Program-made: the position numbers and the translations under genes
Origin: Acetobacterales bacterium
GTDB taxonomy: Bacteria; Pseudomonadota; Alphaproteobacteria; JBBDQX01
Direction: 5' to 3'
Assembly (NCBI GenBank): GCA_040905765.1
Contig: JBBDQX010000007.1
Location: forward strand, 184-64,183
DNA length: 64,000 nucleotides
Notes under the pieces: model-generated
Told to the model about the DNA's origin: nothing
Databases searched by the model: none
What the model saw: only the letters and a program-made list of their open reading frames with translations
Shown here: positions 29,404 through 41,038 of the stretch, one piece after another
How the letters are laid out: each line of letters starts with the position of its first letter
Position numbering within the stretch: position 1 is the stretch's first letter

Positions 29404-30219
29404 CTAGCGGGTGATGGCGAAGGCGAAGATCATGTCGGTGATGACGATCGCGCTGATGCCCTGCACCACCGCCCGCGTCGTCACACGGCCCACCCCCTCG
29501 GCGCCGCCGGAGACCGAGGCGCCGTTGACCACGCCGATCAGAGCGACGAGCGCGGCGAAGATCACGCTCTTGCCGATACCGTGCATCACGTCGTTGATGG
29601 AGAGTGCCTCGACGACCCGGTCGAAGTAGGTCGACATCGACATGCCCAGGTCGGCGCCGATATAGAGCCCGGCGCCGAACAGCGCGACGAGATCGGCATA
29701 AATGGTCAGCGCCGGCAGCATCACCATCATCGCGAACAGCGGCGGCGCGACGAGGAAGCGAACCGGGTTGATGCCCATGACCGTCAGGGCATCGACCTCC
29801 TGATTGATGCTCATCGTGCCGATCCGCGCCGCAAGGGCCGAACCGGACCGGCCGGCGACGAGAATCCCGGTGATCAGCGGCGCGAACTCGCGCGTCACCG
29901 ACAGCGCGACGCCGAGCGTCACCTTCTCCTCCGCCCCGAAGGCGCGCAGCGTGTAGATGCCCTGGATCGCCAGCATCACCCCGATGGTGATGGACAGCAC
30001 GGAGACGATCGGGATCGCCATGACCCCGATTTCCATCATCTGTTCGACGATCGCGGCAAGGCGCACCGGCTGTCGCCTGGCGTGGCCCGTAATCGCCCAG
30101 ACCAGGCTCTCCACCAGCAGCATCGCGGCGAAGCCGATCTCGGCCACGCCCGCGACGGTGCGGCGGCCGATCCGCTCGGCGAGGTCGAGAAAGCCCGCGC
30201 TGCGTGCGCTAGCCGGCAT
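29404..30219 (-). CDS. ABC transporter permease, MlaE-like
   Basis: MlaE family TM core. Start corrected to MPASARSAGFLDLAERIGRR; overlaps the STAS gene stop by 11 nt. Confidence 0.87.
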   Translation of the reverse strand: MPASARSAGFLDLAERIGRRTVAGVAEIGFAAMLLVESLVWAITGHARRQPVRLAAIVEQMMEIGVMAIPIVSVLSITIGVMLAIQGIYTLRAFGAEEKVTLGVALSVTREFAPLITGILVAGRSGSALAARIGTMSINQEVDALTVMGINPVRFLVAPPLFAMMVMLPALTIYADLVALFGAGLYIGADLGMSMSTYFDRVVEALSINDVMHGIGKSVIFAALVALIGVVNGASVSGGAEGVGRVTTRAVVQGISAIVITDMIFAFAITR

Positions 30220-30541
30220 TCGCCAGCGCGTCTTCGACGCTGTCGTGGATGGCGAACACCTGATCGAGGCGCGCCAGCGACAGCACCCGCATCGCCGCCG
30301 GGCTGACGCCGGCGAGGCGGAAATCGATCTTGTTCTTGCGGGCCCCCTGCAGGGCCTCGACGAGGCTGGCGACGCCCGAGGAGTCGATGTACGACACGCC
30401 CCCCATATCGACGAGGACGGCCTTGCCCTTCTTGATCTGGTCGAGCAGCAGGCTGCGCGCCTGCGGCGACGTGGACAGGTCGATGTCGCCCTGCAGCGCA
30501 ACGACCGTGGCCGCGGCCTCCTCCCTCACATCGTGTTTCAT
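30209..30541 (-). CDS. STAS-domain anti-sigma-factor-antagonist-like protein (RsbV/SpoIIAA-like, occupies the MlaB position)
   Basis: 110 aa STAS fold carrying the phosphorylatable motif VSYIDSSGVASLVEAL. Confidence 0.8.
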   Translation of the reverse strand: MKHDVREEAAATVVALQGDIDLSTSPQARSLLLDQIKKGKAVLVDMGGVSYIDSSGVASLVEALQGARKNKIDFRLAGVSPAAMRVLSLARLDQVFAIHDSVEDALANAG

Positions 30542-30562
30542 CGTCCCCTCAGTCAGCCTGTT

Positions 30563-31051
30563 TCAGCAGCCCGTCACGCCGAACCTTTTTGCCATGCGCA
30601 ACAGGTTGCCGTGCCCGGACGGCGGCGGCAAGAAGCCGCTCTCGTCCATTACCTCGTTTATCAGGTGCACGCCGATGCCGCCCGGCCGGACCTCGTCGAG
30701 GGACCGCGGCTTGATGCGGCTGGCGTCCACGGTCGGCGCGAAGTCCCTGAGCAGTACGATCATGCTGTGCCGGTCGCGCAACAGCGCCACCACGATGACA
30801 CCGTCCGGCGCCGACTTGTAGGCGTGCCGGATCACATTCTGGCACGCCTCGTCCACCGCCAGCACGATGTCACAAACATCGTCGGATCCGAAGCCGCAGA
30901 GCTGCGCCGCCGCCGAGACGCCGGCCCGCACCAGCCGAAGCCGGTCGGGGCAGGACGGAACGCGCAATTCCACGAGCAGTTCGGCGTCCCGTTCGCCGAG
31001 CGCCGCCATGACGTCGGAGACGGAGGATTCCAGCGAGGGCGGGCTCGTCAT
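30563..31051 (-). CDS. anti-sigma regulatory factor / serine protein kinase (RsbW/SpoIIAB-like, HATPase_c)
   Basis: N-box (DEACQNVIRHAY) and G-box (RPGGIGVHLI). ATGA overlap with the upstream phosphatase gene. Confidence 0.8.
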   Translation of the reverse strand: MTSPPSLESSVSDVMAALGERDAELLVELRVPSCPDRLRLVRAGVSAAAQLCGFGSDDVCDIVLAVDEACQNVIRHAYKSAPDGVIVVALLRDRHSMIVLLRDFAPTVDASRIKPRSLDEVRPGGIGVHLINEVMDESGFLPPPSGHGNLLRMAKRFGVTGC

Positions 31052-32319
31052 GTTCCGATCGCCAGCAGGGTCACGTCGTCGTGCAGTTCCTCGTTAAAGG
31101 CGCGGATGCGCGCAGTGATCGACCGCACACGCTCGGGAAGCGGCAGGTAGCGGTACGACCGCACCAGCGTCTTGAAGCCCTCCTGCCCGAGCATCTGCTC
31201 GTGCTCCGAGGCCTCCGTCACACCGTCGGTGAAGACATACAGCGTCCCGCCCCGCAGTGCGATCTCACGATCCGGGAACTCGAGTCCCGGCACGATGCCC
31301 AGGGGCGGCTGCTCGGCCTCGAACTCGAGGAAGGTGCCGTCGGGCAGATGCAGCAAGGGCGGTTCGTGGCCGGCATTCGCCAGCGTCACCCTGCCCTCCG
31401 CGAGGTCCATCAGGCCTACAGCCATGGTGACGAACTTGCCGCGCGTCGCCGTCTCGCACACCTCTTCGTTGACATGCGCGAGGAGGGCGCCGGGATCGGG
31501 CTCGCGCTTGCCGAGCGCACGGAACACGCTGGCCGTCTTCGCCATCAGCAGCGCGGCGTCCATGCCCTTGCCGGAGACGTCGCCGAGTGCGAACAGCACC
31601 CTGCCGTCCGGAAGCGTCATATAATCGAAGAAGTCGCCGGACACTCGCCGTGCCGGCAGGTTGACGCCGAAAATGGGCAGACCGTCGCGGTCGGACTTGG
31701 GCAGCAGTGCACGCTGGATTTCTGCGGCAAGCTCGAGTTCGCGCTGAAGCCGTTCCTGGTCGACCAGCGCACGAGCCTGCTGGGCGTTGATGAAGGCCAT
31801 TGCGGCGGTCGAGGCGAGCACCCGAAGCACGCTCTGGTCGCGGCTGTCGAACAGGCCCTCGCCTCCGACCTTGTTGATCAGCTCGATGGCCCCGATGCAG
31901 CGGTCCTTGATGCTGAGCGGGGCGCACAGGATAGAGCGCGTGGTGAATCCGGTCTTCTCGTCGACCTGGGCCCCGAACGCGGGATCCTCGCGGACATCGC
32001 GCACGATCTCGCAGCTGTTGTCGCGGATGCTGCGGCCGACGATCCCCTGATCGATCGGCAGGCGCAGGCCGGAGATGTCGACCGGCCCGATGCAGACGGT
32101 GCAGACCACGTCCTGCCCGCCGTCCGGCGTTTCCTCCAGCATGAACAGGGAGGAGGCCTCCGCCGACAGGATCTCGGTGATCCGCTCCAGGCCGCGCCGG
32201 ATGGTCTGCTCGACGTCGAGCGTGTGCCCGAACTCCTCCGTCAGCATGACGAGAAGCTCAAGATACTCGGTGAACTCTGCGGCGGCGCCGGCCGTCGCGG
32301 GCGATCGCTCGTCTGGCAT
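31048..32319 (-). CDS. GAF domain-containing PP2C-type serine phosphatase (RsbU/SpoIIE-like)
   Basis: N-terminal GAF followed by PP2C motifs (SGDFFDY, ALGDVSGKGMDAALLM, GHEPPLL, VFTDGVTE). Confidence 0.85.
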   Translation of the reverse strand: MPDERSPATAGAAAEFTEYLELLVMLTEEFGHTLDVEQTIRRGLERITEILSAEASSLFMLEETPDGGQDVVCTVCIGPVDISGLRLPIDQGIVGRSIRDNSCEIVRDVREDPAFGAQVDEKTGFTTRSILCAPLSIKDRCIGAIELINKVGGEGLFDSRDQSVLRVLASTAAMAFINAQQARALVDQERLQRELELAAEIQRALLPKSDRDGLPIFGVNLPARRVSGDFFDYMTLPDGRVLFALGDVSGKGMDAALLMAKTASVFRALGKREPDPGALLAHVNEEVCETATRGKFVTMAVGLMDLAEGRVTLANAGHEPPLLHLPDGTFLEFEAEQPPLGIVPGLEFPDREIALRGGTLYVFTDGVTEASEHEQMLGQEGFKTLVRSYRYLPLPERVRSITARIRAFNEELHDDVTLLAIGT

Positions 32320-32371
32320 CGCGCTTACTATGCCCCCGACGGCGGCCTGAGGGAACGGCGACCGCCCCGGA

Positions 32372-32719
32372 CTACGGCGTCTCAAGTTCGCCGTTGTCCT
32401 CGACTACATGGTCGACCATGTCGGTCAGCATGCTGCGGACATGCGGATCGGCAACCAGGTAGAACACCTGCCGTCCCTGGCGCTCCGCCTGCAGCAGACG
32501 CGCGGCACGCAGCAGCCGCAGATGGTGGCTGACCAGCGACGGCGACAATCCGAGCCGGGCCGCCATGTCCCCCACCGAGACCTTGCGGTTGAGACAGGTG
32601 AGGATGATGCCGAGACGCGTCGGATCGCTCATCAGGCGGAACATCTCCGCCAGTTCTATTACGGCGTCGTCGCCGACGCGCGGGTCGTTGCCACCCTCCA
32701 CCGGGGCGTTCTTCAGCAT
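32372..32719 (-). CDS. ArsR/SmtB family metal-sensing transcriptional regulator
   Basis: wHTH (LSDPTRLGIILTCL...VSHHLRLLR) with an intact alpha-5 metal site (DPHVRSMLTDMVDHVVE, matching DxHx10HxxE). Confidence 0.85.
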   Translation of the reverse strand: MLKNAPVEGGNDPRVGDDAVIELAEMFRLMSDPTRLGIILTCLNRKVSVGDMAARLGLSPSLVSHHLRLLRAARLLQAERQGRQVFYLVADPHVRSMLTDMVDHVVEDNGELETP

Positions 32720-32859
32720 CGTCGAAAACCGAGTGTTCGGGCGCGGTCCAGCAACCCCGCCAACTTAGAACCATTCTAGGGTCTGCCCGGGACGGTACGC
32801 AACCGAATAGCCCGGCCGACAACACATTGCCGCGACAGGAGAGCGATTTCATGCGTACT

Positions 32860-32995
32860 TGAAAATAACATCAATGCCGAATAAATTGTGAATCTATGAA
32901 AACTGAAAAATACAAAGTTCATAATTTATACTTGAATATTTGTTGAATCGTAGAGCTGTACATTTGAACAGGAGTTCAGATGTGGAAGTGCGGGA
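32860..32995. promoter_or_regulatory. AT-rich divergent promoter/operator region between the ArsR-led operon and the metal ABC importer
   Basis: About 130 bp at roughly 28% GC in a roughly 68% GC genome. Contains repeated TTGAA/TGAA half-sites and the imperfect palindrome TTCATAATTTATACTTGAA. SD GGGAGA lies 7 nt before the SBP ATG. Confidence 0.4.
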
Positions 32996-33002
32996 GATAT
33001 CG

Positions 33003-33968
33003 ATGTTGACCATTCTGCGCCGGACCCTGCTGGCAATGGCCGCCTGCCTGGCGCTGGCCGTGCTGCCGCTGCGTGCGGAGGCGGCCTACAGGATCGTCGC
33101 CACCATCGGCATGGTAAGCGACATCGCGTCGAACGTGGCCGGCGACCGGGCCGAGGTCGAGGCGCTGATGGGTTCCGGGGTGGACCCCCACCTCTACACG
33201 ACCACCCGCTCCGACATGGCGCGGTTGCTGCGCGCCGACGTGGTCTTCTACAACGGCCTGCTGCTCGAAGGGAAAATGAGCGACGCCCTGATCCGGGTCG
33301 CCACCCGGGGCAAGCCCGTGTTCGCGGTGACAGAACTGCTGGACGAGAAGTTCCTGCTCGCGCCGCCGGAATTTCAGGGCCACCACGACCCGCACGTCTG
33401 GATGGATCCGTCGGCGTGGATCCGGGCCGTGGATGTGGTGCGTGACCGCCTTTCCACCTACGACCCGCCCGGGAAGGACGACTATGCGCGCAATGCCGAG
33501 GCCTACAAGGCGACGCTGCGGGAACTGGATGTCTATGCCGAACGCGTGCTCGGTACGGTGCCGGAATCGTCGCGGGTGCTCGTCACAGCGCATGACGCCT
33601 TCAACTATTTCGGTCGGCGCTACGGCTACGAGGTCGTCGGCATCCAGGGCATGAGCACCGAATCGGAGGCCGGCGTGAAGCAGATCGGGGCGCTGCTCGA
33701 CATGCTGGTCGACCGGAAGATCGGCGCCGTGTTCGTCGAGACGACGGTGTCGGAGCGCAATATCCGCGCCCTTATCGAGGGGGCGGCAGCGCGCGGCCAC
33801 GAGGTGACGGTCGGCGGTTCGCTGTTTTCCGACGCCATGGGCGAACCCGGCACCTACGAGGGCACCTACCTCGGCATGATGGACCACAACGTCACCGCCA
33901 TCGCCCGCGCCCTCGGCGGCAATGCGCCGGCAGGCGGCAGGCGCGGCGAACTGGCGCGGGGGAACTGA
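33003..33968 (+). CDS. metal ABC transporter substrate-binding protein (cluster A-I, TroA/SitA/MntC/ZnuA family)
   Basis: Signal peptide plus the TroA-fold metal-binding His/Asp region (HDPHVWMDP). Confidence 0.9.
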   Translation: MLTILRRTLLAMAACLALAVLPLRAEAAYRIVATIGMVSDIASNVAGDRAEVEALMGSGVDPHLYTTTRSDMARLLRADVVFYNGLLLEGKMSDALIRVATRGKPVFAVTELLDEKFLLAPPEFQGHHDPHVWMDPSAWIRAVDVVRDRLSTYDPPGKDDYARNAEAYKATLRELDVYAERVLGTVPESSRVLVTAHDAFNYFGRRYGYEVVGIQGMSTESEAGVKQIGALLDMLVDRKIGAVFVETTVSERNIRALIEGAAARGHEVTVGGSLFSDAMGEPGTYEGTYLGMMDHNVTAIARALGGNAPAGGRRGELARGN

Positions 33969-33970
33969 GG

Positions 33971-34744
33971 ATGGAGTCCCGTACCGGCTCCGGAGCGCCT
34001 CTGCGCGTCAGCGACCTGACGATTGCCTACCGCGACAAGCCGGTGCTGTGGGAGGTGGACTACACGGCGCCGGCAAGCGGCATGATCGCGGTGGTGGGGC
34101 CCAATGGCGCCGGCAAATCGACGCTGATCAAGGCCTGCCTCGGCCTCGTACCGGCAGCGGCCGGCAGCATCGAGGTGTTCGGGCAGCCGGCCAGGCGGCA
34201 GCGGCGGCTCATCGGCTACCTGCCGCAGCGCGAGTCGGTGGACTGGGATTTCCCCGCGTCGGCGCTGGATGTCGTGACGATGGGCCTGTACGGCCGGATC
34301 GGCTGGCTGCGCCCGGTGCGCAGGCGCCACCGCGAGGAGGCCCTGACCTATCTGGAGAAGGTCAACATGGCCGATTTCGCCGACAGGCAGATCGGTCAGC
34401 TGTCGGGCGGCCAGCAGCAACGCGTGTTCCTCGCGCGCGCGCTGGCGCAGGATGCCCGGCTGTATTTCATGGACGAGCCCTTCGCCGGCGTGGACGCGGC
34501 CACCGAGCGAGCCATCGTGGCCGTGCTGGAGGAGATGGACGCGCAGGGGCGGACGGTGATCTGCGTGCACCACGACCTGGATACGGTACCGAAGTACTTC
34601 CACCATGTGCTGCTGCTGAACAACCGCGTCGTCGCGGCCGGCAGCGTCGGCGAAGCGTTTACCCGCGAGAACCTGCAGAAGACTTACGGCGGAAGGCTAG
34701 CGCTGCTGGAACAGGCCGGCGAGGCGCTGGCACGCAGCGCATGA
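33971..34744 (+). CDS. metal ABC transporter ATP-binding protein
   Basis: Walker A (GPNGAGKST), signature (LSGGQQQRV) and Walker B (LYFMDEPFAGVD). Confidence 0.9.
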   Translation: MESRTGSGAPLRVSDLTIAYRDKPVLWEVDYTAPASGMIAVVGPNGAGKSTLIKACLGLVPAAAGSIEVFGQPARRQRRLIGYLPQRESVDWDFPASALDVVTMGLYGRIGWLRPVRRRHREEALTYLEKVNMADFADRQIGQLSGGQQQRVFLARALAQDARLYFMDEPFAGVDAATERAIVAVLEEMDAQGRTVICVHHDLDTVPKYFHHVLLLNNRVVAAGSVGEAFTRENLQKTYGGRLALLEQAGEALARSA

Positions 34745-36144
34745 ACACCGCCACCTCCCTCGCCACCGTTTCCTACGACTGGCCGCCGCTGCACGAGGTG
34801 CTGGCGGTGCTCACTCTCAATGCCGGGTACAACGCGGCCAGCGTGGTGGTCGGTACGATGCTGCTGGGCATAGCCGCCGGGATGGTCGGCACCTTCGCGC
34901 TGCTGCGCAAGCGGGCGCTGATGAGCGACGCGCTGAGCCATGCGACGCTGCCCGGCATCTGCATGGCCTTCATCGTCGCCGCGGCCATAGGTACCACTGG
35001 CCGAAGCCTGCCGGTGCTGATCGCCGGCGCGGCGGTGAGCGGCATCGTCGGCGTGCTTTTCGCCCAGTTCATCGTCGCCAATTCGCGTCTTCGGCAGGAT
35101 GTCGCGATCGGCGTGGTGCTGAGCGTATTCTTCGGCCTGGGGGTCGTGCTGCTGAGCTACATCCAGACGATGCAGACCGGATCTCAGGGCGGGCTGCATC
35201 ATTTCATCCTGGGTCAGACGGCGGCGCTGAAGCGCAGCGACGCCCTGTTGATGGGCGGCATCGCGCTGCTCGCGCTGCTTGCCACGACGGCTCTGTTCAA
35301 GGAGTTCCGGCTGATCTGCTTCGATGAGGATTTCGCGCGCGTGCAGGACTGGCCGGTCTCGCGGATCGACCTGCTGATGATGACCCTCGTGGTGGTCGTG
35401 ACGGTCGTCGGCCTGCAGGCGGTCGGCCTGCTGCTGATTGTCGCCTTCGTCATCATCCCGCCGACCGCTGCTCGCTTCTGGACCGACCGGCTCGGCGCCA
35501 TGACCCTGCTCGCCGCGGCATTCGGCGGCCTGAGTGGCTATCTGGGTTCCAGTGCCTCCGCCCTGTTCCCGGACCTGCCGACCGGAGCGGTCATCGTGCT
35601 GGTCTCGGGCGCGATCTTCGTCGTCAGCATGTTCCTCGCACCGGGGCGGGGGGTCGTCGCCGATGTCCTCCGGCGCGTCCGCATGCGGACGCGGATGGCG
35701 CAGGAGCATGTGCTGCGCAGCTATTTCGAACTGTTCGAGACAGGCCACTACCGGGACTGGAGGACGTCGCGGGTACCGCGCGAGGCGCTGCTGCTGTACC
35801 GGGACTGGCACCGGCGCGGGCTCGGTCTGCTCCTGCGGCTGATGGCGCTGCGCGGTCTCCTGACGCTGCATGGGGATGAGGTCGCGCTGACCGACAAGGG
35901 GCGGGAGGAGGCGTTCCGGATCACCCGCACCCACCGGCTCTGGGAACAGTACCTGACGACCCACGCCGACCTCGCCCCGGCACAGGTGCACGGACCGGCC
36001 GAACTGGTCGAGCATGTGCTGACGCCACAGATGATCGCCGACCTTGAGGAGCGCCTCGCCGTGGTGGGACGCCGCCCCCGAGCGGACGCCATGCCGCAGA
36101 GCGCGCATCCCCTTCCCGACGCCGGCGAGGGAGCGACGCCATGA
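34741..36144 (+). CDS. ABC-3 family metal permease fused to a C-terminal DtxR/MntR-like repressor domain
   Basis: About 290-aa TM core (ABC-3) followed by about 170 aa with a wHTH-like segment (LRSYFELFETG...LTDKGREEAFRITRTHRLWEQYL) and a DtxR-like dimerisation/metal domain. ATGA overlap with the ATPase gene. Confidence 0.85.
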   Translation: MNTATSLATVSYDWPPLHEVLAVLTLNAGYNAASVVVGTMLLGIAAGMVGTFALLRKRALMSDALSHATLPGICMAFIVAAAIGTTGRSLPVLIAGAAVSGIVGVLFAQFIVANSRLRQDVAIGVVLSVFFGLGVVLLSYIQTMQTGSQGGLHHFILGQTAALKRSDALLMGGIALLALLATTALFKEFRLICFDEDFARVQDWPVSRIDLLMMTLVVVVTVVGLQAVGLLLIVAFVIIPPTAARFWTDRLGAMTLLAAAFGGLSGYLGSSASALFPDLPTGAVIVLVSGAIFVVSMFLAPGRGVVADVLRRVRMRTRMAQEHVLRSYFELFETGHYRDWRTSRVPREALLLYRDWHRRGLGLLLRLMALRGLLTLHGDEVALTDKGREEAFRITRTHRLWEQYLTTHADLAPAQVHGPAELVEHVLTPQMIADLEERLAVVGRRPRADAMPQSAHPLPDAGEGATP

Positions 36145-37121
36145 CCCTCACCGTTCAGGACTTCCTGCAGCTCGACGTGCCGGCGATGCTGGCGGCGTTC
36201 CTGGCCTGCGCCTGCTGCGCCCTGCTCGGCAACTTCCTCGTGCTGCGACGGCAGAGCCTGATGGGCGATGCCATCGCCCACGCGGTGCTGCCGGGCATCA
36301 TCCTCGGCTTCCTGCTGACGGGATCGCGCGCCGTGGTGCCCATCCTGGCCGGCGCGCTCGGCGCAGGCATCGTGGCTGCCGTGCTGATCGAGCTTGTGCG
36401 GCGCCTCGGCCGCGTCGAGCCCGGCGCGGCGATGGGAGTCGTCTTCTCGATCATGTTCGCGCTAGGCGTCGTGCTAATGGAGCAGGCGGCGGCGAGTGCA
36501 GTCGACCTGGATGCCGACTGCATCCTCTACGGCCAACTCGAGGACATTCTCTGGCTCGCGCCGACCGGCTGGTCGTCGCTGCTCGATCCGACGGTGTGGG
36601 CAGACATGCCGCGCGAAGTGGTGACGCTGTTCGTCGTGACGGCATTCTGCGCAGCCATGGTGGCGATGTTCTACAAGGAGCTGAAGATCACGTCCTTCGA
36701 CCCGGATCTGGCGACGACGCTCGGCATATCGGCCAAGCTGTTCCACTACGGCCTGATGACCCTCGTGGCTGCCGCCTGCGTCGCCGCCTTCGAGGCGGTG
36801 GGGTCGATACTGGTCATCGCCATGCTGATCGTCCCGGCATCCATCGCCCGGCTGCTGACCGACCGGCTGGCGGTCCAGATCCGCCTCAGCATCCTCGCCG
36901 CACTGGCCATAGGGCCGGGCGGCTACGTGCTTGCCGCCTTCGGACCATTCTGGATCGGCGGCACCGACTCGCTCAACGCGGCCGGCATGATGGCGACGCT
37001 TTCGGGGGTCCTGCTGGTCGTGACGATCCTGATCGCGCCCCGCTACGGAATGCTGGCGCGGCGGCGACACGCACGCCGGCTATGGGTACAGCCGGCTGAA
37101 GAACCCGAGGGATCGGCCTGA
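36141..37121 (+). CDS. ABC-3 family metal permease (second TM subunit)
   Basis: 326 aa multi-TM ABC-3 protein; ATGA overlap with the preceding permease. Confidence 0.88.
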   Translation: MTLTVQDFLQLDVPAMLAAFLACACCALLGNFLVLRRQSLMGDAIAHAVLPGIILGFLLTGSRAVVPILAGALGAGIVAAVLIELVRRLGRVEPGAAMGVVFSIMFALGVVLMEQAAASAVDLDADCILYGQLEDILWLAPTGWSSLLDPTVWADMPREVVTLFVVTAFCAAMVAMFYKELKITSFDPDLATTLGISAKLFHYGLMTLVAAACVAAFEAVGSILVIAMLIVPASIARLLTDRLAVQIRLSILAALAIGPGGYVLAAFGPFWIGGTDSLNAAGMMATLSGVLLVVTILIAPRYGMLARRRHARRLWVQPAEEPEGSA

Positions 37122-38594: not shown

Positions 38595-38718
38595 GGTCCG
38601 TTTCGGCGGTGAAGGACAGGCCGGCGAGAATGCCGGCCCTTCGGTGGCCTTTTCAGGTCCGGATGTTATCCTACCTAAAAGGCTCCAAGGGAAGTCAAAC
38701 GAAGTCCTGAGAGGGAGA

Positions 38719-40044
38719 GTGGTCATCGTCTCCAACGTCCAGCAGAAGGTGACGCCTGCGGGTATCGTGCCGGCACGCCAAAGCCTGATCGAGCAGTTCC
38801 GCGTCGTGCGGGGCTGGAGCGAGCGGCTTGCGGAGCCGCTCTCCGCCGAAGACCAGACGATCCAGACCATGCCGGACGTGAGTCCGACGAAATGGCACCT
38901 GGCGCACACGTCGTGGTTCTTCGAGGCCTTCATCCTGAAGCCGCACCAGCCGGACTACCTGCCGCTCGACCCGCGCTTCCACTACCTCTTCAACAGTTAC
39001 TACGAGGCCCTCGGCGAACGGCATCCGCGTCCGCGCCGGGGCTTCATCTCCCGCCCGGGCCGCGACGAGGTGGTGGCCTTCCGGCGCCATATCGACGAGG
39101 CCATGGCAGCACTGGTCGCCGATTGCGACGACCGGACGTTCGAGAGCGTCGCACCGCTGGTGGTGCTCGGCCTGCATCACGAGCAGCAGCATCAGGAACT
39201 CATCCTCACCGACATCAAGCACGTGCTGTCGTGCAACCCGCTATGGCCCGCCTACAAGCAGACGCCACCCGCCGCCACGACCGGGGCCGCGCCGCTGCGC
39301 TGGCACGAGTTCGAGGGAGGGCTGGCCGAGATCGGCAGCGACCGCACCGGTCCGGGCATGGGCTACGACGAGTTCGGCTTCGACAACGAGGGCCCGCGCC
39401 ACAAAGTATGGCTGGAACCGTTCCGTCTTGCGTCCCGGCCGGTCACCAACGGCGAGTTCCTGGAGTTCATCGAGGACGGCGGCTACCGGCGCCACGAGCT
39501 CTGGCTCTCGGACGGCTGGGCCACCGTGAATGCCGAAGGCTGGACGGCGCCGATGTACTGGCAGCGGCGCGACGACGGCGGCTTTGACCACCTCACCCTG
39601 GGTGGCCGCGCGCCCGTCGATCCGGCCGCGCCCGCCTGCCACCTGAGCTTCTATGAGGCGGCGGCCTATGCGAACTGGGCGGGGAAGCGCCTGCCGTCGG
39701 AAGCGGAGTGGGAGGTCGCGGCCGAGGGCATCGAACCCGCCGGCAACCTCTTGGACAGCGGCCACTTCCGGCCCGTGGCTGCAAGCGGCACCGTCGACGG
39801 TCCGGCGCAGCTTTACGGCGACGTCTGGGAATGGACCGGCAGCGCCTATCTCGGCTATCCGGGATTCCGGGCGGCAGCCGGCGCTGTCGGCGAGTACAAT
39901 GGTAAGTTCATGTGCAACCAGTTCGTGCTGCGGGGTGGAAGCTGCGCCACGCCACCCGGGCACATCCGCCGCAGCTACCGCAATTTCTTCCCACCGAATG
40001 CGCGCTGGCAGTTCTCCGGCCTGCGGCTCGCCGACGATGCCTGA
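38719..40044 (+). CDS. egtB: ergothioneine biosynthesis sulfoxide synthase
   Basis: DinB_2 N-domain (HLAHTSWFFE) plus FGE-sulfatase C-domain (GDVWEWT). GTG start is uncertain. The track start overlaps the divergent TPP gene. Confidence 0.85.
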   Translation: MVIVSNVQQKVTPAGIVPARQSLIEQFRVVRGWSERLAEPLSAEDQTIQTMPDVSPTKWHLAHTSWFFEAFILKPHQPDYLPLDPRFHYLFNSYYEALGERHPRPRRGFISRPGRDEVVAFRRHIDEAMAALVADCDDRTFESVAPLVVLGLHHEQQHQELILTDIKHVLSCNPLWPAYKQTPPAATTGAAPLRWHEFEGGLAEIGSDRTGPGMGYDEFGFDNEGPRHKVWLEPFRLASRPVTNGEFLEFIEDGGYRRHELWLSDGWATVNAEGWTAPMYWQRRDDGGFDHLTLGGRAPVDPAAPACHLSFYEAAAYANWAGKRLPSEAEWEVAAEGIEPAGNLLDSGHFRPVAASGTVDGPAQLYGDVWEWTGSAYLGYPGFRAAAGAVGEYNGKFMCNQFVLRGGSCATPPGHIRRSYRNFFPPNARWQFSGLRLADDA

Positions 40045-41038
40045 CGAAGTCCGCGCCGCGAAGGAGAATGGCGGTCGCGGCCGTCTGTCGCAATTCGTCG
40101 ACCTCGAACCGGCGACGGAAAGCTTCCGTGACGCCGTGATCGAGGGACTTTCGCAACGGCAGAAGTCGGTTCCGAGCAAGTTCCTTTACGACGCGGAGGG
40201 CTCGCGCCTTTTCGACGAGATCTGCGCGGTGGAGGAGTACTATCCGACGCGCACGGAGCTGGCCCTGTTGCGCGCGCGCGCGGGCGAGATCGCCGACCTG
40301 GCCGGACGCGACACGGTGCTCGTGGAGTACGGCAGCGGCGCCAGCGTCAAGGTGCGCATCCTGCTCGATGCGCTGAGCGAGCCGGCGGGGTACGTGGCGA
40401 TAGACATATCCGGCGAGCACCTCCGACAGGCCGCGTCGGCGGTAGCGGCCGATTATCCGGACCTGGAGGTCTCGGCGGTCTGTGCCGACTACACGAGCGA
40501 CTTCGAACTGCCGAGCACGGCCAACGGCGATACGCGTCTCGGCTTCTTCCCTGGCTCGACGATCGGCAATTTCACACCCGCCGCCGCGGTCGATTTCCTG
40601 CGCCATGCCGCCGCAACCCTGGGTTCCGGGGGCGCGCTGGTGATCGGAGCTGACCTCAAGAAGGATCCAGACATCCTCAAGGCAGCCTACAACGATGCCG
40701 CCGGCGTCACGGCCGAGTTCAACCTCAACCTGCTGACGCGCATCAATCGCGAACTCGGCGGAACCTTCGACGTGGAGGCGTTCAGCCACGACGCGGTCTG
40801 GAACAGCCGGATGAGCCGGATCGAAATGCATCTTCGAAGCCGCCGCACCCAGGCTGTCGAAGTCGACGGCACGCCGTTCCGGTTCGCGGAGGGCGAAACC
40901 ATCCATACGGAGAATTCGTACAAGTTCGATATCGTCCAGTTCCGCCACATGGCGGGCGAGGCCGGCTTCCGGCCGGAGCGCACCTGGACCGACCGCGAGG
41001 GGCTGTTCAGCGTTCACTACCTGGCGGTCGCGGCCTGA
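40037..41038 (+). CDS. egtD: L-histidine N-alpha-methyltransferase
   Basis: EgtD family (VEYGSGASVKVRILLDAL...); start overlaps egtB by 8 nt. Confidence 0.9.
   Translation: MPDEVRAAKENGGRGRLSQFVDLEPATESFRDAVIEGLSQRQKSVPSKFLYDAEGSRLFDEICAVEEYYPTRTELALLRARAGEIADLAGRDTVLVEYGSGASVKVRILLDALSEPAGYVAIDISGEHLRQAASAVAADYPDLEVSAVCADYTSDFELPSTANGDTRLGFFPGSTIGNFTPAAAVDFLRHAAATLGSGGALVIGADLKKDPDILKAAYNDAAGVTAEFNLNLLTRINRELGGTFDVEAFSHDAVWNSRMSRIEMHLRSRRTQAVEVDGTPFRFAEGETIHTENSYKFDIVQFRHMAGEAGFRPERTWTDREGLFSVHYLAVAA

What the first reader, a model, noticed from the sequence alone, without database searches (positions are those of the whole stretch)
34741..36144. ABC-3 metal permease with a complete C-terminal DtxR/MntR-like repressor domain (membrane-tethered metalloregulator?)
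After the roughly 290-aa TM core the protein continues for about 170 aa. This extension has a wHTH-like segment (LRSYFELFETG...GLLTLHGDEVALTDKGREEAFRITRTHRLWEQYL) and a DtxR-type dimerisation/metal domain, in frame with no intervening stop. The next permease gene overlaps by ATGA. A DNA-binding metalloregulator fused to its own importer permease could act as a membrane-tethered sensor, an autoregulator, or a cytoplasmic metal-gating domain. Its function is not established.
Basis: partly seen in the sequence, partly recalled or inferred. Interest (0 to 1): 0.6.

Follow-up and report, generated by a model that had tools for sequence, protein, structure and literature searches.

The report
Metal-importer permease fused to DtxR-like sensor
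This gene really does encode a metal-uptake membrane subunit with a metal-sensing, repressor-like domain on its cytoplasmic tail. The design is already known from the Chlamydia protein YtgC-YtgR and is widespread, but how the tail works in free-living bacteria is still open.

Summary
ORF 34741-36144 encodes 467 aa: an ABC-3 (TroC/PsaC-type) permease followed in frame by a two-subdomain DtxR-fold module. The model has pLDDT 90. Every DtxR metal ligand is present. Only the metal/dimerisation half is found by HMM.

It is not a frameshift. A Logan assembly carries the identical ORF, and all 120 listed homologues and 80 related genomic loci (Planctomycetota, Verrucomicrobiota, Alphaproteobacteria, Bdellovibrionota and others) have the same fusion.

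It is not new as a kind. It aligns colinearly with Chlamydia trachomatis YtgCR (28% identity, E 2e-56). In YtgCR the C-terminal domain is reported to be cleaved off and to act as an iron-dependent repressor.

Family-wide evidence argues against "repressor of its own operon" as the conserved role:
- The recognition helix is almost unconstrained, while the metal site is invariant.
- The TM9-to-ligand linker is exactly 19 residues everywhere.
- In 45 of 82 loci both permeases carry such a domain.
- Some members lack helix α2.
- Operator type tracks whichever stand-alone regulator sits next door. Here that is an SmtB-like repressor with two 12-2-12 sites.

I favour an in-place cytoplasmic metal sensor that throttles the transporter (0.4) over a released YtgR-like repressor (0.35). 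Verdict: new member of a known kind, moderate interest.

The parts
34741..36144 (+). Permease-sensor fusion gene (467 aa + stop). NCBI MEX2641917.1, annotated only as 'metal ABC transporter permease', from an Acetobacterales MAG.
34741..35640 (+). aa 1-300: ABC-3 / TroC-YtgC-type transmembrane domain. Nine predicted TM helices, N-terminus out and C-terminus in.
   Evidence: Pfam PF00950, 198 bits. Foldseek to PsaC 7kyp: TM-score on target 0.88, 31% identity. Scores as P1-type: 418 bits against 133 for P2-type. Topology is inferred from the model's helices and the positive-inside rule: RKR 56-58, SRLR 115-118, and the Arg-rich stretch 311-318.
35641..35739 (+). aa 301-333: junction P301-x-R303-G304, then one continuous helix that runs into DtxR helix α1 and carries ligand H323.
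   Evidence: P301, R303 and G304 are invariant in 116 sequences. The helix spans 305-333 at pLDDT >90. The G304-to-ligand distance is exactly 19 residues in 79/79 P1-type domains, 26/27 P2-type domains and 4/4 Chlamydiales.
35740..35892 (+). aa 334-384: winged-helix subdomain (α2 347-353, α3 358-370, wing 374-383). Recognised by fold only. Arg/Leu-rich, net charge +4.
   Evidence: fold; no PF01325; helix-3 entropy 2.98 bits; charge
35893..36063 (+). aa 385-441: metal-binding/dimerisation subdomain with ligands H398, E402, H417, E421, E424 and H425.
   Evidence: Pfam PF02742, 53.5 bits. PDB alignments to Mtb MntR, IdeR and SloR. Mean column entropy 0.98 bits.
36064..36141 (+). aa 442-467: low-confidence tail with the conserved motif P452-x-S454-x-H456-P457. 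H456 is a possible extra ligand, in place of the SH3-domain ligands of DtxR.
   Evidence: S454 in 98/103 and H456 in 100/103 sequences. No regular secondary structure from residue 442. The ligand role is inference.
36141..37121 (+). Permease 2 (326 aa, TroD/YtgD-type). Not fused here: it ends 22 residues after its APRYG junction.
33971..34744 (+). ABC ATPase (257 aa) with no C-terminal regulatory domain.
33003..33968 (+). TroA-type cluster A-I substrate-binding protein. The His/His/His/Asp ligand motifs DPHLY, DPHVW, TAHDAF and FSDAMG are kept.
   Evidence: PDB 1TOA, 236 bits, with alignment; Pfam ZnuA
32927..32952 (+). SmtB/ArsR-type 12-2-12 repeat, site 1: TATACTTGAATA-TT-TGTTGAATCGTA.
   Evidence: Compare the AztR/AzuR sites in PMC8790569 Table 2. 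Partly conserved in L082.
32959..32984 (+). SmtB/ArsR-type 12-2-12 repeat, site 2: TACATTTGAACA-GG-AGTTCAGATGTG. It lies between the promoter-like hexamers and the SBP start codon.
32765..32779 (.). Orphan conserved palindrome TTAGAAccaTTCTAg (a perfect TTAGAAccaTTCTAA in the closest relative L082), about 45 bp upstream of the arsR-like start codon. Its binding protein is unknown.
32372..32719 (-). Divergent SmtB/CzrA-like ArsR-family repressor gene with a complete α5 metal site (D-x-H-x10-H-x2-E).

Best explanation
The gene encodes the TroC/YtgC-type permease of a TroABCD-like Mn/Fe/Zn importer. Its last transmembrane helix continues, through a rigid helix of fixed length, into a DtxR-fold metal-sensing module in the cytoplasm. 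It belongs to the YtgCR permease-sensor fusion family.

Shown here:
- the architecture and the fold;
- the complete set of DtxR primary-site and ancillary-site ligands;
- colinear homology with YtgCR;
- the operon context.

Inferred:
- The module binds the imported metal once its cytoplasmic concentration rises, and feeds back negatively on uptake.
- In this organism the feedback most likely acts in place on the transporter, as allosteric 'trans-inhibition'. Metal would clamp helix α1 (H323) onto the dimerisation subdomain (E421/E424/H425) and so pull on TM9.
- Transcription of the operon is handled instead by the divergent SmtB-like repressor, through the two 12-2-12 operators.

A YtgR-like DNA-binding role after release is almost as likely and is not excluded.
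For: Family membership:
- BLASTP against CTL0325 gives one colinear alignment, aa 34-453 against 13-443, E 2e-56.
- The gene order SBP-ATPase-fusion-permease is the same.

Sensor function:
- H323, H398, E402, D/H417, D/E421, E424 and H425 are invariant or nearly so in 79-116 homologues.

In-place action:
1. Helix α3 has an entropy of 2.98 bits against 0.98 bits for the metal core. In stand-alone MntR genes from the same loci the HTH is as conserved as the metal site (1.23 against 1.18 bits).
2. The junction-to-ligand spacing is exactly 19 residues in 79/79 P1-type and 26/27 P2-type domains and in all 4 Chlamydiales. It is predicted as one helix at pLDDT >90. The α1-α2 loop, by contrast, varies from 2 to 30 residues.
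3. A pTM of 0.84 for the whole chain implies a defined orientation between domains (inference).
4. In 45 of 82 loci both permeases carry such a domain, so one transporter would hold a ready-made heterodimer.
5. Six P1-type members lack helix α2 but keep every ligand.
6. Operator type follows the neighbouring stand-alone regulator and not the constant fused domain. MntR-type neighbours go with TAGC-N4-GCTA (15/29). Neighbours of about 225 aa (DtxR-type) go with yTTGA-N4-TCAAr (9/13). ArsR-type neighbours go with 12-2-12 repeats (2/2).
7. This window has no MntR-type box anywhere in its 64 kb.
8. PF01325 is undetectable in the fused domains but is detected in the neighbouring MntR.

Precedents, from established knowledge: the cytoplasmic metal-sensing domains of CDF/YiiP, MgtE and CorA; MetN C2 and ModC TOBE trans-inhibition; and FeoC, a winged-helix protein first read as a regulator.
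Against: - The only experiments on this family (Chlamydia YtgR) report metal-dependent DNA binding, repression in E. coli reporter assays, and cleavage from the permease (PMC5599777, PMC6504234, PMC7755916).
- The winged-helix subdomain here is complete, confidently modelled and basic (+4). Its hydrophobic/basic helix 3 resembles that of YtgR.
- A conserved palindrome at 32765-32779 has no assigned binding protein.
- Permease 2 carries no domain here, so no intra-complex dimer partner exists.
- I could not inspect model coordinates, so contact between the domain and the TMD or ATPase is not shown.
- No transport or binding data exist for any free-living member.
Confidence: 0.4

Rival explanations
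1. YtgR model. The C-terminal module is cleaved from the permease, dimerises when loaded with Fe/Mn/Zn, and represses transcription of its own operon and/or other genes as a soluble DtxR-like repressor.
For: - Colinear homology with YtgCR.
- Motifs shared with YtgR: EH in helix α1, RxHRLWExYL, and VHxxAExxEHVLT.
- The C-terminal 139 aa of YtgR are reported to suffice for iron-dependent repression, and cleavage was observed in Chlamydia and in E. coli (PMC6504234, PMC7755916, PMC5599777).
- Complete winged-helix fold with net charge +4.
- An orphan conserved palindrome, TTAGAAccaTTCTAg, could be its operator.
Against: - Helix 3 is nearly unconstrained across the family, and PF01325 is undetectable.
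- The positions equivalent to DtxR Q43, R47 and R50 are Leu here.
- The operon already has a divergent SmtB-like repressor and two matching 12-2-12 sites.
- Operator type tracks the neighbouring regulator across 73 loci.
- The fixed-length helical linker is not what a protease-accessible tether would look like.
- Some members lack helix α2.
- The reported 28-30 kDa fragment is larger than the roughly 19 kDa domain, so it would still contain TM helices (inference from PMC5599777 and PMC7755916).
Confidence: 0.35
2. Membrane-tethered DNA binding without cleavage. The intact fusion binds an operator at the membrane, as ToxR, CadC or artificially anchored LacI do.
For: - Full-length YtgC repressed as well as the free domain in E. 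coli, and the review raises this possibility (PMC5599777).
- The domain is cytoplasmic and basic.
- Doubly fused transporters would present two winged helices.
Against: - There is only one domain per transporter here, whereas DtxR-type binding needs a dimer.
- The same problems with the recognition helix and with operator tracking apply as for the released-repressor model.
- The rigid short linker places the domain directly under the TMD, next to the ATPases. This is likely to be sterically poor for DNA (inference).
Confidence: 0.08
3. Metal acceptor or buffer, or a decayed remnant. The domain receives metal at the cytoplasmic exit of the pore and hands it on, like a chaperone, or it only stabilises the complex. 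It has no regulatory output.
For: - The metal sites are strictly conserved while the rest of the surface drifts.
- The domain sits at the end of TM9.
Against: - The DtxR fold is a conformational switch. The dimer-interface helices and the exact linker length are conserved far beyond what a passive binding site would need.
- The domain has been kept across several phyla.
Confidence: 0.12
4. Assembly or sequencing artefact that joins a permease gene to a separate troR/mntR gene.
For: None beyond the prior that adjacent genes can be merged by a frameshift error.
Against: - The identical ORF occurs in a Logan assembly of run SRR27977661.
- All 120 listed homologues, at 50-78% identity, have both domains in one protein.
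- 80 genomic loci from several phyla show the same fusion.
- The junction has no indels.
Confidence: 0.01

Closest known systems
Chlamydia trachomatis YtgC-YtgR (CT069/CTL0325) of the ytgABCD operon
   Same: - ABC-3 permease with a C-terminal DtxR-like module in one ORF.
- The same operon order.
- Colinear alignment, 28% identity, E 2e-56.
- Identical junction-to-ligand spacing.
- The same ligand pattern, VHxxAExxEHVLT.
- A hydrophobic/basic helix 3.
- PF01325 is undetectable in both.
   Different: - The chlamydial C-domain scores higher with the profile of the domain found on the second permease (P2-type: 115 bits, against 69 for P1-type). It ends in DPHxxxIP. The window's domain is P1-type (156 against 99 bits) and ends in PxSxHP.
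- The literature says YtgR is the only identified iron-dependent regulator in Chlamydia (PMC6504234). This locus has a dedicated SmtB-like regulator next door.
- Cleavage and DNA binding have been tested only in Chlamydia and E. coli.
- The WWW motif of YtgC is absent here.
Treponema pallidum TroABCD-TroR
   Same: - The SBP is a close TroA homologue: 236 bits to 1TOA, with the His3Asp site kept.
- Two ABC-3 permeases and one ATPase.
- A two-subdomain DtxR-family module with no SH3 domain is associated with the operon.
   Different: - TroR is a separate soluble protein encoded after troD. Here the module is fused to the first permease.
DtxR / IdeR / MntR metalloregulators (Pfam PF01325 + PF02742)
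   Same: - Fold: 120-146 aligned columns, TM-score on target up to 0.75.
- Ligands of both the primary and the ancillary site, and PF02742 above its cutoff.
   Different: - The N-terminal DNA-binding HMM is not detected.
- The recognition helix lacks the conserved polar pattern (S/T-x-x-Q/T...R) and is unconstrained in the family.
- The module is covalently attached to a membrane protein.
- It has no SH3-like third domain.
Trans-inhibition domains of ABC importers (MetN C2, ModC TOBE) and cytoplasmic metal-sensing domains of metal transporters (YiiP/CDF C-terminal domain, MgtE, CorA); FeoC
   Same: - A cytoplasmic domain that binds the substrate, is physically part of the transporter, and could give immediate negative feedback.
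- Like FeoC, a winged-helix protein that was first read as a transcription factor.
   Different: - The known ABC trans-inhibition domains sit on the ATPase, not on the permease, and have different folds.
- No experiment links this domain to transport control.
- This comparison rests on my own knowledge of those systems, not on a test made here.
SmtB-smtA / ZiaR-ziaA divergent repressor-operator arrangement
   Same: The neighbouring gene has the SmtB α5 site, and two 12-2-12 repeats lie between the promoter and the first structural gene.
   Different: Those systems control metallothionein or efflux genes. Here the controlled operon looks like an importer.

Membership tests
YtgCR-type permease-sensor fusion | N-terminal ABC-3 (TroC/YtgC-type) permease domain | tested here: met
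   PF00950, 198 bits. PsaC fold, TM-score on target 0.88. The P1-type TMD profile gives 418 bits for the window and 140-187 bits for chlamydial YtgC.
YtgCR-type permease-sensor fusion | C-terminal DtxR-like module in the same reading frame | tested here: met
   An identical ORF is present in a Logan assembly.
YtgCR-type permease-sensor fusion | Colinear full-length homology to CTL0325 | tested here: met
   BLASTP aa 34-453 against 13-443, 28% identity, E 2e-56. The YtgCR sequence comes from PMC7755916 Supplementary Data 5.
YtgCR-type permease-sensor fusion | Operon order SBP - ATPase - fused permease - second permease | tested here: met
   the same order in 80 related loci
YtgCR-type permease-sensor fusion | Proteolytic release of the C-terminal domain | not testable with these tools
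   The protease and cleavage site are unknown even in Chlamydia (PMC5599777). The linker here is a fixed-length helix.
YtgCR-type permease-sensor fusion | Metal-dependent binding to, and repression of, its own promoter | tested here: inconclusive
   The promoter region carries SmtB-type 12-2-12 sites and one orphan palindrome, and no MntR/DtxR-type box.
DtxR/MntR family transcription factor | Metal-binding/dimerisation domain PF02742 with the ligand residues | tested here: met
   53.5 bits against a cutoff of 27. The equivalents of H79, E83, H98, C102, E105 and H106 are present.
DtxR/MntR family transcription factor | N-terminal winged-helix DNA-binding domain recognisable as PF01325, with a conserved recognition helix | tested here: not met
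   No PF01325 hit at E<=10 on the isolated tail, whereas the neighbouring MntR of locus L004 scores 42.6 bits. Helix-3 entropy is 2.98 bits, against 1.30 in stand-alone MntR. The fold itself is present.
DtxR/MntR family transcription factor | Free soluble homodimer | tested here: not met
   The module is covalently fused after TM9, and there is only one copy per heterodimeric transporter in this operon.
Cluster A-I (TroABCD/PsaBCA-type) type II ABC metal importer | TroA/PsaA-type SBP with a His/His/His(Glu)/Asp site, one ATPase and two ABC-3 permeases | tested here: met
ABC-importer trans-inhibition module | Cytoplasmic substrate-binding domain that is part of a transporter subunit | tested here: met
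   The position after TM9 and the conserved metal ligands. The cytoplasmic side is inferred from the positive-inside rule.
ABC-importer trans-inhibition module | Domain attached to the ATPase C-terminus (as in MetN, ModC, MalK) | tested here: not met
   The ATPase is 257 aa with no extra domain. The sensor is on the permease.
ABC-importer trans-inhibition module | Internal substrate inhibits ATPase activity or transport through the domain | not testable with these tools
   Needs transport or ATPase assays.

The most novel reading that the evidence does not exclude
The conserved job of the permease-fused DtxR-fold domain, across Planctomycetota, Verrucomicrobiota, Proteobacteria and possibly Chlamydiae, is not transcription. 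It is direct gating of the importer. Cytoplasmic metal would close the DtxR switch, and the fixed 19-residue helix would pass that movement to TM9. In the 45 of 82 loci where both permeases are fused, the two domains would form a DtxR-like heterodimer inside one transporter. The repressor activity of YtgR would then be a secondary use, in a lineage where the literature identifies no other iron-dependent regulator. This would be the first trans-inhibition module on the permease of a type II ABC importer, and the first DtxR fold used as an allosteric domain.
Probability: 0.35. Interest if true: 0.7.

Novelty: new member of a known kind. Interest (0 to 1): 0.42.

Why it matters
As a gene this is one more member of the YtgCR fusion class, which public annotation hides under the name 'metal ABC transporter permease'.

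Free-living members offer something Chlamydia cannot. They sit in operons that already have a dedicated regulator (MntR-type, DtxR-type or SmtB-type). That separates the question 'what does the fused domain do' from 'who represses the operon'.

If the domain gates transport, it would add post-translational feedback to Mn/Fe/Zn uptake in several large phyla, and it would prompt a re-reading of the YtgR data. If instead it is a released repressor, the family would offer a tractable non-pathogen system for finding the unknown protease and cleavage site.

Tried and rejected
- Word-indexed homologue search with the tail alone returned one fragment. The index is not sensitive enough for this domain. 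The full-length search and the exhaustive search (1678 clusters at E<=1e-3) worked.
- The primary YtgR papers could not be read. I relied on the review and on two open papers. The YtgCR sequences came from a supplement.
- The afdb50 fold library was not available.
- The inverted-repeat finder saw nothing in the intergenic region. Alignment with the closest relative L082 revealed the conserved sites.
- A search for MntR-type boxes (TAGC-N4-GCTA) found none upstream of this operon or of L082, and no perfect match in the whole window.
- Frameshift or mis-assembly: rejected.
- Internal translation start for a free domain: M315 and M319 exist, but these positions are Leu, Ile or Val in most homologues. 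It is not a family feature.
- The short 'stand-alone' hits of 120-190 aa in the exhaustive search are fragments. They start in TM9 or in the linker helix.
- A literature search for a trans-inhibition role of this fusion found nothing in the held library.
- I could not obtain model coordinates, so inter-domain contacts remain unexamined.
Full report
**1. Observation**

The frame opening at ATG 34741 runs 467 codons to TGA 36142-36144. It overlaps the upstream ATPase gene and the downstream second permease gene by ATGA at both ends.

Pfam finds ABC-3 at aa 34-299 (198 bits) and Fe_dep_repr_C at aa 384-452 (53.5 bits, cutoff 27). NCBIfam MntR and DtxR models match only aa 365-461. The N-terminal DNA-binding HMM PF01325 is not found, even at E<=10 on the isolated tail.

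The fold is nevertheless complete. An AlphaFold2 model built on 116 homologues (pLDDT 90.4, pTM 0.84) shows:
- a long helix at 305-333;
- two short helices at 347-353 and 358-370;
- a beta hairpin at 374-383;
- three helices at 385-441.

Foldseek matches the N-terminal 300 residues to PsaC of the pneumococcal Mn importer (TM-score on target 0.88). It matches the tail to DtxR, IdeR, DR2539 and SloR over 120-146 columns.

PDB sequence alignments place H398, E402, H417, E421, E424 and H425 on DtxR/IdeR H79, E83, H98, C102, E105 and H106.

**2. Not an artefact**

- The identical 467-aa product is called on a Logan assembly of run SRR27977661. I do not know that this run is independent of the window's source.
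- It equals NCBI MEX2641917.1, 'metal ABC transporter permease', from an Acetobacterales MAG.
- All 120 listed homologues (50-78% identity, mostly 426-488 aa) carry PF00950+PF02742.
- A scan of one genome per species found at least 583 relatives. The 80 best are fusions from Phycisphaerae, Planctomycetaceae, Pirellulaceae, Verrucomicrobiales, Opitutales, Kiritimatiellae, Hyphomicrobium, Azospirillum, Bdellovibrionota, Spirochaetaceae and Desulfobacteraceae.
- An exhaustive search with the tail alone finds 1678 clusters at 50% identity. The best hits carry the match at the C-terminal end of longer proteins or of fragments of them.

**3. Known relative**

The literature describes exactly this architecture in Chlamydia trachomatis. 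YtgC (CT069/CTL0325) is an ABC-3 permease whose C-terminal DtxR-like domain, YtgR, has the following reported properties:
- it is cleaved off (bands of 49 and about 28-30 kDa);
- it binds the ytg promoter in an Fe(II)-dependent way;
- it represses ytgABCD and trpBA.

Fusions were noted in 11 phyla. The protease and the cleavage site are unknown (PMC5599777, PMC6504234, PMC7755916).

Using the YtgCR sequence from a supplement, BLASTP gives one colinear alignment over both domains (28% identity, E 2e-56).

Profiles built from the related loci give this picture:

| Query | Profile | Score (bits) |
|---|---|---|
| Chlamydial TMD | first-permease type | 140-187 |
| Chlamydial TMD | second-permease type | 80-105 |
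| Chlamydial C-domain | C2 (second-permease type) | 115 |
| Chlamydial C-domain | C1 (first-permease type) | 69-89 |
| Window C-domain | C1 | 156 |
| Window C-domain | C2 | 99 |
| Chlamydial proteins | stand-alone MntR | 12-20 |
| Window protein | stand-alone MntR | none |

The fused domains therefore form their own clade, and the window protein belongs to it.

**4. Context**

The SBP is a close TroA homologue (236 bits to 1TOA) with the His/His/His/Asp site kept. The system is TroABCD-like, and its metal (Mn, Fe or Zn) is not resolved.

The divergent gene at 32372-32719 is SmtB/CzrA-like with a complete α5 site, D-x-H-x10-H-x2-E.

Alignment of the intergenic region with the syntenic closest relative L082 (77% protein identity) leaves three conserved blocks:
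- The palindrome TTAGAAccaTTCTAg at 32765-32779.
- The repeat TATACTTGAATA-TT-TGTTGAATCGTA at 32927-32952.
- The repeat TACATTTGAACA-GG-AGTTCAGATGTG at 32959-32984.

The two repeats match published SmtB/ArsR 12-2-12 sites such as AATACCTGAACA-GA-TGTTCAAGTATT (PMC8790569). They lie between σ70-like hexamers and the SBP start codon. The simplest reading is that the SmtB-like protein controls the operon.

**5. What the family says about the fused domain**

I mapped 82 loci in all: 80 from the genome scan, L082, and L001, which duplicates the window.

(a) In 45 loci the second permease also carries an in-frame DtxR-like domain. It is a distinct paralogue with Asp at the M10 position, an H-x-H...AExxEH motif, and a DPHGxxIP tail.

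(b) About 40 loci have a stand-alone DtxR-family gene next to the operon.

(c) Upstream operators fall into classes that follow that neighbour:

| Neighbouring regulator | Operator class | Count |
|---|---|---|
| MntR-type | GTAGC-N4-GCTAC | 15/29 perfect, never the other class |
| DtxR-type, about 225 aa | yTTGA-N4-TCAAr | 9/13 |
| ArsR-type | 12-2-12 | 2/2 |

Across all 73 upstream regions the MntR-type box is perfect in 34.

(d) Column entropy differs sharply between fused domains and stand-alone regulators:

| Domain set | Helix-turn-helix (bits) | Metal/dimer core (bits) |
|---|---|---|
| Fused, C1 | 2.73 (helix 3: 2.98) | 0.98 |
| Fused, C2 | 2.69 | 1.38 |
| Neighbouring MntR genes, same taxa | 1.23 | 1.18 |

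(e) The distance from the junction glycine to the α1 ligand is exactly 19 residues in 79/79 C1 domains, 26/27 C2 domains and four Chlamydiales. The next loop varies from 2 to 30 residues.

(f) Six C1 domains lack helix α2 yet keep all ligands.

(g) The winged-helix region is basic: +3.3 on average, +4 here and +5 in YtgR, against +0.2 in MntR. Here and in YtgR the positions that contact DNA in DtxR are Leu or Phe.

**6. Interpretation**

Secure points:
- This is a YtgCR-family permease-sensor fusion.
- The domain is cytoplasmic. This follows from the nine modelled TM helices and the positive-inside rule, and is an inference.
- Selection has kept the metal sites, the dimer-interface helices and the rigid connection to TM9, but not a recognition helix.

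From this I infer that the conserved role is metal sensing coupled mechanically to the transporter. In this organism transcription is left to the SmtB-like neighbour (confidence 0.4).

The YtgR-style released repressor remains close behind (0.35), for four reasons. It is the only mechanism with experimental support. The winged helix here is intact and basic. An orphan palindrome is available as a possible operator. This operon has only one fused domain, so an in-complex dimer is impossible.

Tethered DNA binding (0.08) and a passive metal-acceptor or remnant role (0.12) are less likely. An artefact is excluded.

**7. Novelty and score**

The architecture is known and is experimentally characterised in one lineage. 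This gene is a new member of that kind.

The comparative observations are not described in any paper I could find in the held library, and they make the open question testable. They are the double fusions, the fixed linker, the relaxed recognition helix, and the operators that follow the neighbouring regulator. Interest is moderate (0.42). If the gating reading is right, interest would be about 0.7.

Noticed in passing
window 32372-32719 (-) and 32927-32984: An SmtB/CzrA-like repressor with a complete α5 metal site sits divergent to an importer-type operon, and two canonical 12-2-12 operators lie just upstream of the SBP gene. SmtB-type repressors normally release DNA when metal is abundant, so this importer would be metal-induced. 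That is an unusual logic. One possibility is Mn uptake switched on under Zn/Co/Ni stress.
   Followed up: partly
window 32765-32779: The palindrome TTAGAAccaTTCTAg is conserved with the closest relative (perfect in L082) while its flanks diverge. It lies about 45 bp upstream of the arsR-like start codon. Its spacing differs from the 12-2-12 sites and from MntR boxes. It occurs once in the window, and its binding protein is unknown.
   Followed up: partly
L004 7289-8719, L013 7284-8708, L014, L037, L057, L071, L079, L081 and others (45 of 82 loci): The second permease also carries an in-frame DtxR-like C-terminal domain. This is a distinct paralogue type with Asp at the α1 ligand position and a DPHGxxIP tail. 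One transporter would therefore hold two such domains.
   Followed up: partly
L012, L015, L031, L045, L048, L070 (first-permease C-domains): These fused domains lack helix α2 of the helix-turn-helix but keep every metal ligand. In L056 the first-permease domain has lost the HRLWE and ligand motifs altogether.
   Followed up: partly
upstream regions of 73 related loci (e.g. L013 about -94 and -31; L028 about -114 to -100; L059 about -60): There are three operator classes. GTAGC-N4-GCTAC goes with neighbouring MntR-type genes. TTATCTTGA-N4-TCAAGATAA or TTTTGA-N4-TCAAAA goes with neighbouring DtxR-type genes of about 225 aa. 12-2-12 repeats go with the ArsR-type neighbour. The MntR-type boxes are often in tandem, 16 bp apart.
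   Followed up: yes
Chlamydial YtgCR sequences (PMC7755916 Supplementary Data 5) against the locus profiles: Chlamydial YtgC has a first-permease-type membrane domain, but its C-domain scores higher with the second-permease-type profile. This suggests domain exchange or loss during evolution of the single fusion. In Protochlamydia and Waddlia the α1 ligand position is Asn instead of His.
   Followed up: partly
literature (PMC5599777, PMC7755916): The reported YtgR cleavage product (28-30 kDa) is much larger than the DtxR-like module (about 160 aa, roughly 19 kDa). By size, the fragment should still include several transmembrane helices.
   Followed up: no
L068 1877-5295 (Spirochaetaceae MAG): Both permeases are fused, and a separate DtxR-family gene follows directly downstream, in the position that troR occupies in Treponema.
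   Followed up: no
window 36141-37121: Permease 2 is 326 aa. Its Pfam ABC-3 match is split in two by an insertion at about aa 134-158, and it ends in a 22-residue basic tail after the APRYG junction. The tail may be a remnant of a lost fused domain.
   Followed up: no
window 29404-32385 (-): Downstream of the arsR-like gene on the minus strand lie a GAF-SpoIIE/PP2C phosphatase, an RsbW-like HATPase_c_2 kinase, a STAS protein and MlaE. This looks like a partner-switching module joined to Mla-like lipid-transport genes. The relative L082 has the same arrangement.
   Followed up: no
window 38695-41035 (+): A DinB_2 + FGE-sulfatase protein is followed by a histidine-specific methyltransferase (Methyltransf_33, 382 bits). 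This is an egtB-egtD-like pair for ergothioneine synthesis.
   Followed up: no
window 34684-36108 (-) and other long antisense ORFs: Long ORFs on the opposite strand of the real genes, for example 474 aa antisense to the fusion gene. These are expected in DNA of 67% GC and are not genes.
   Followed up: no
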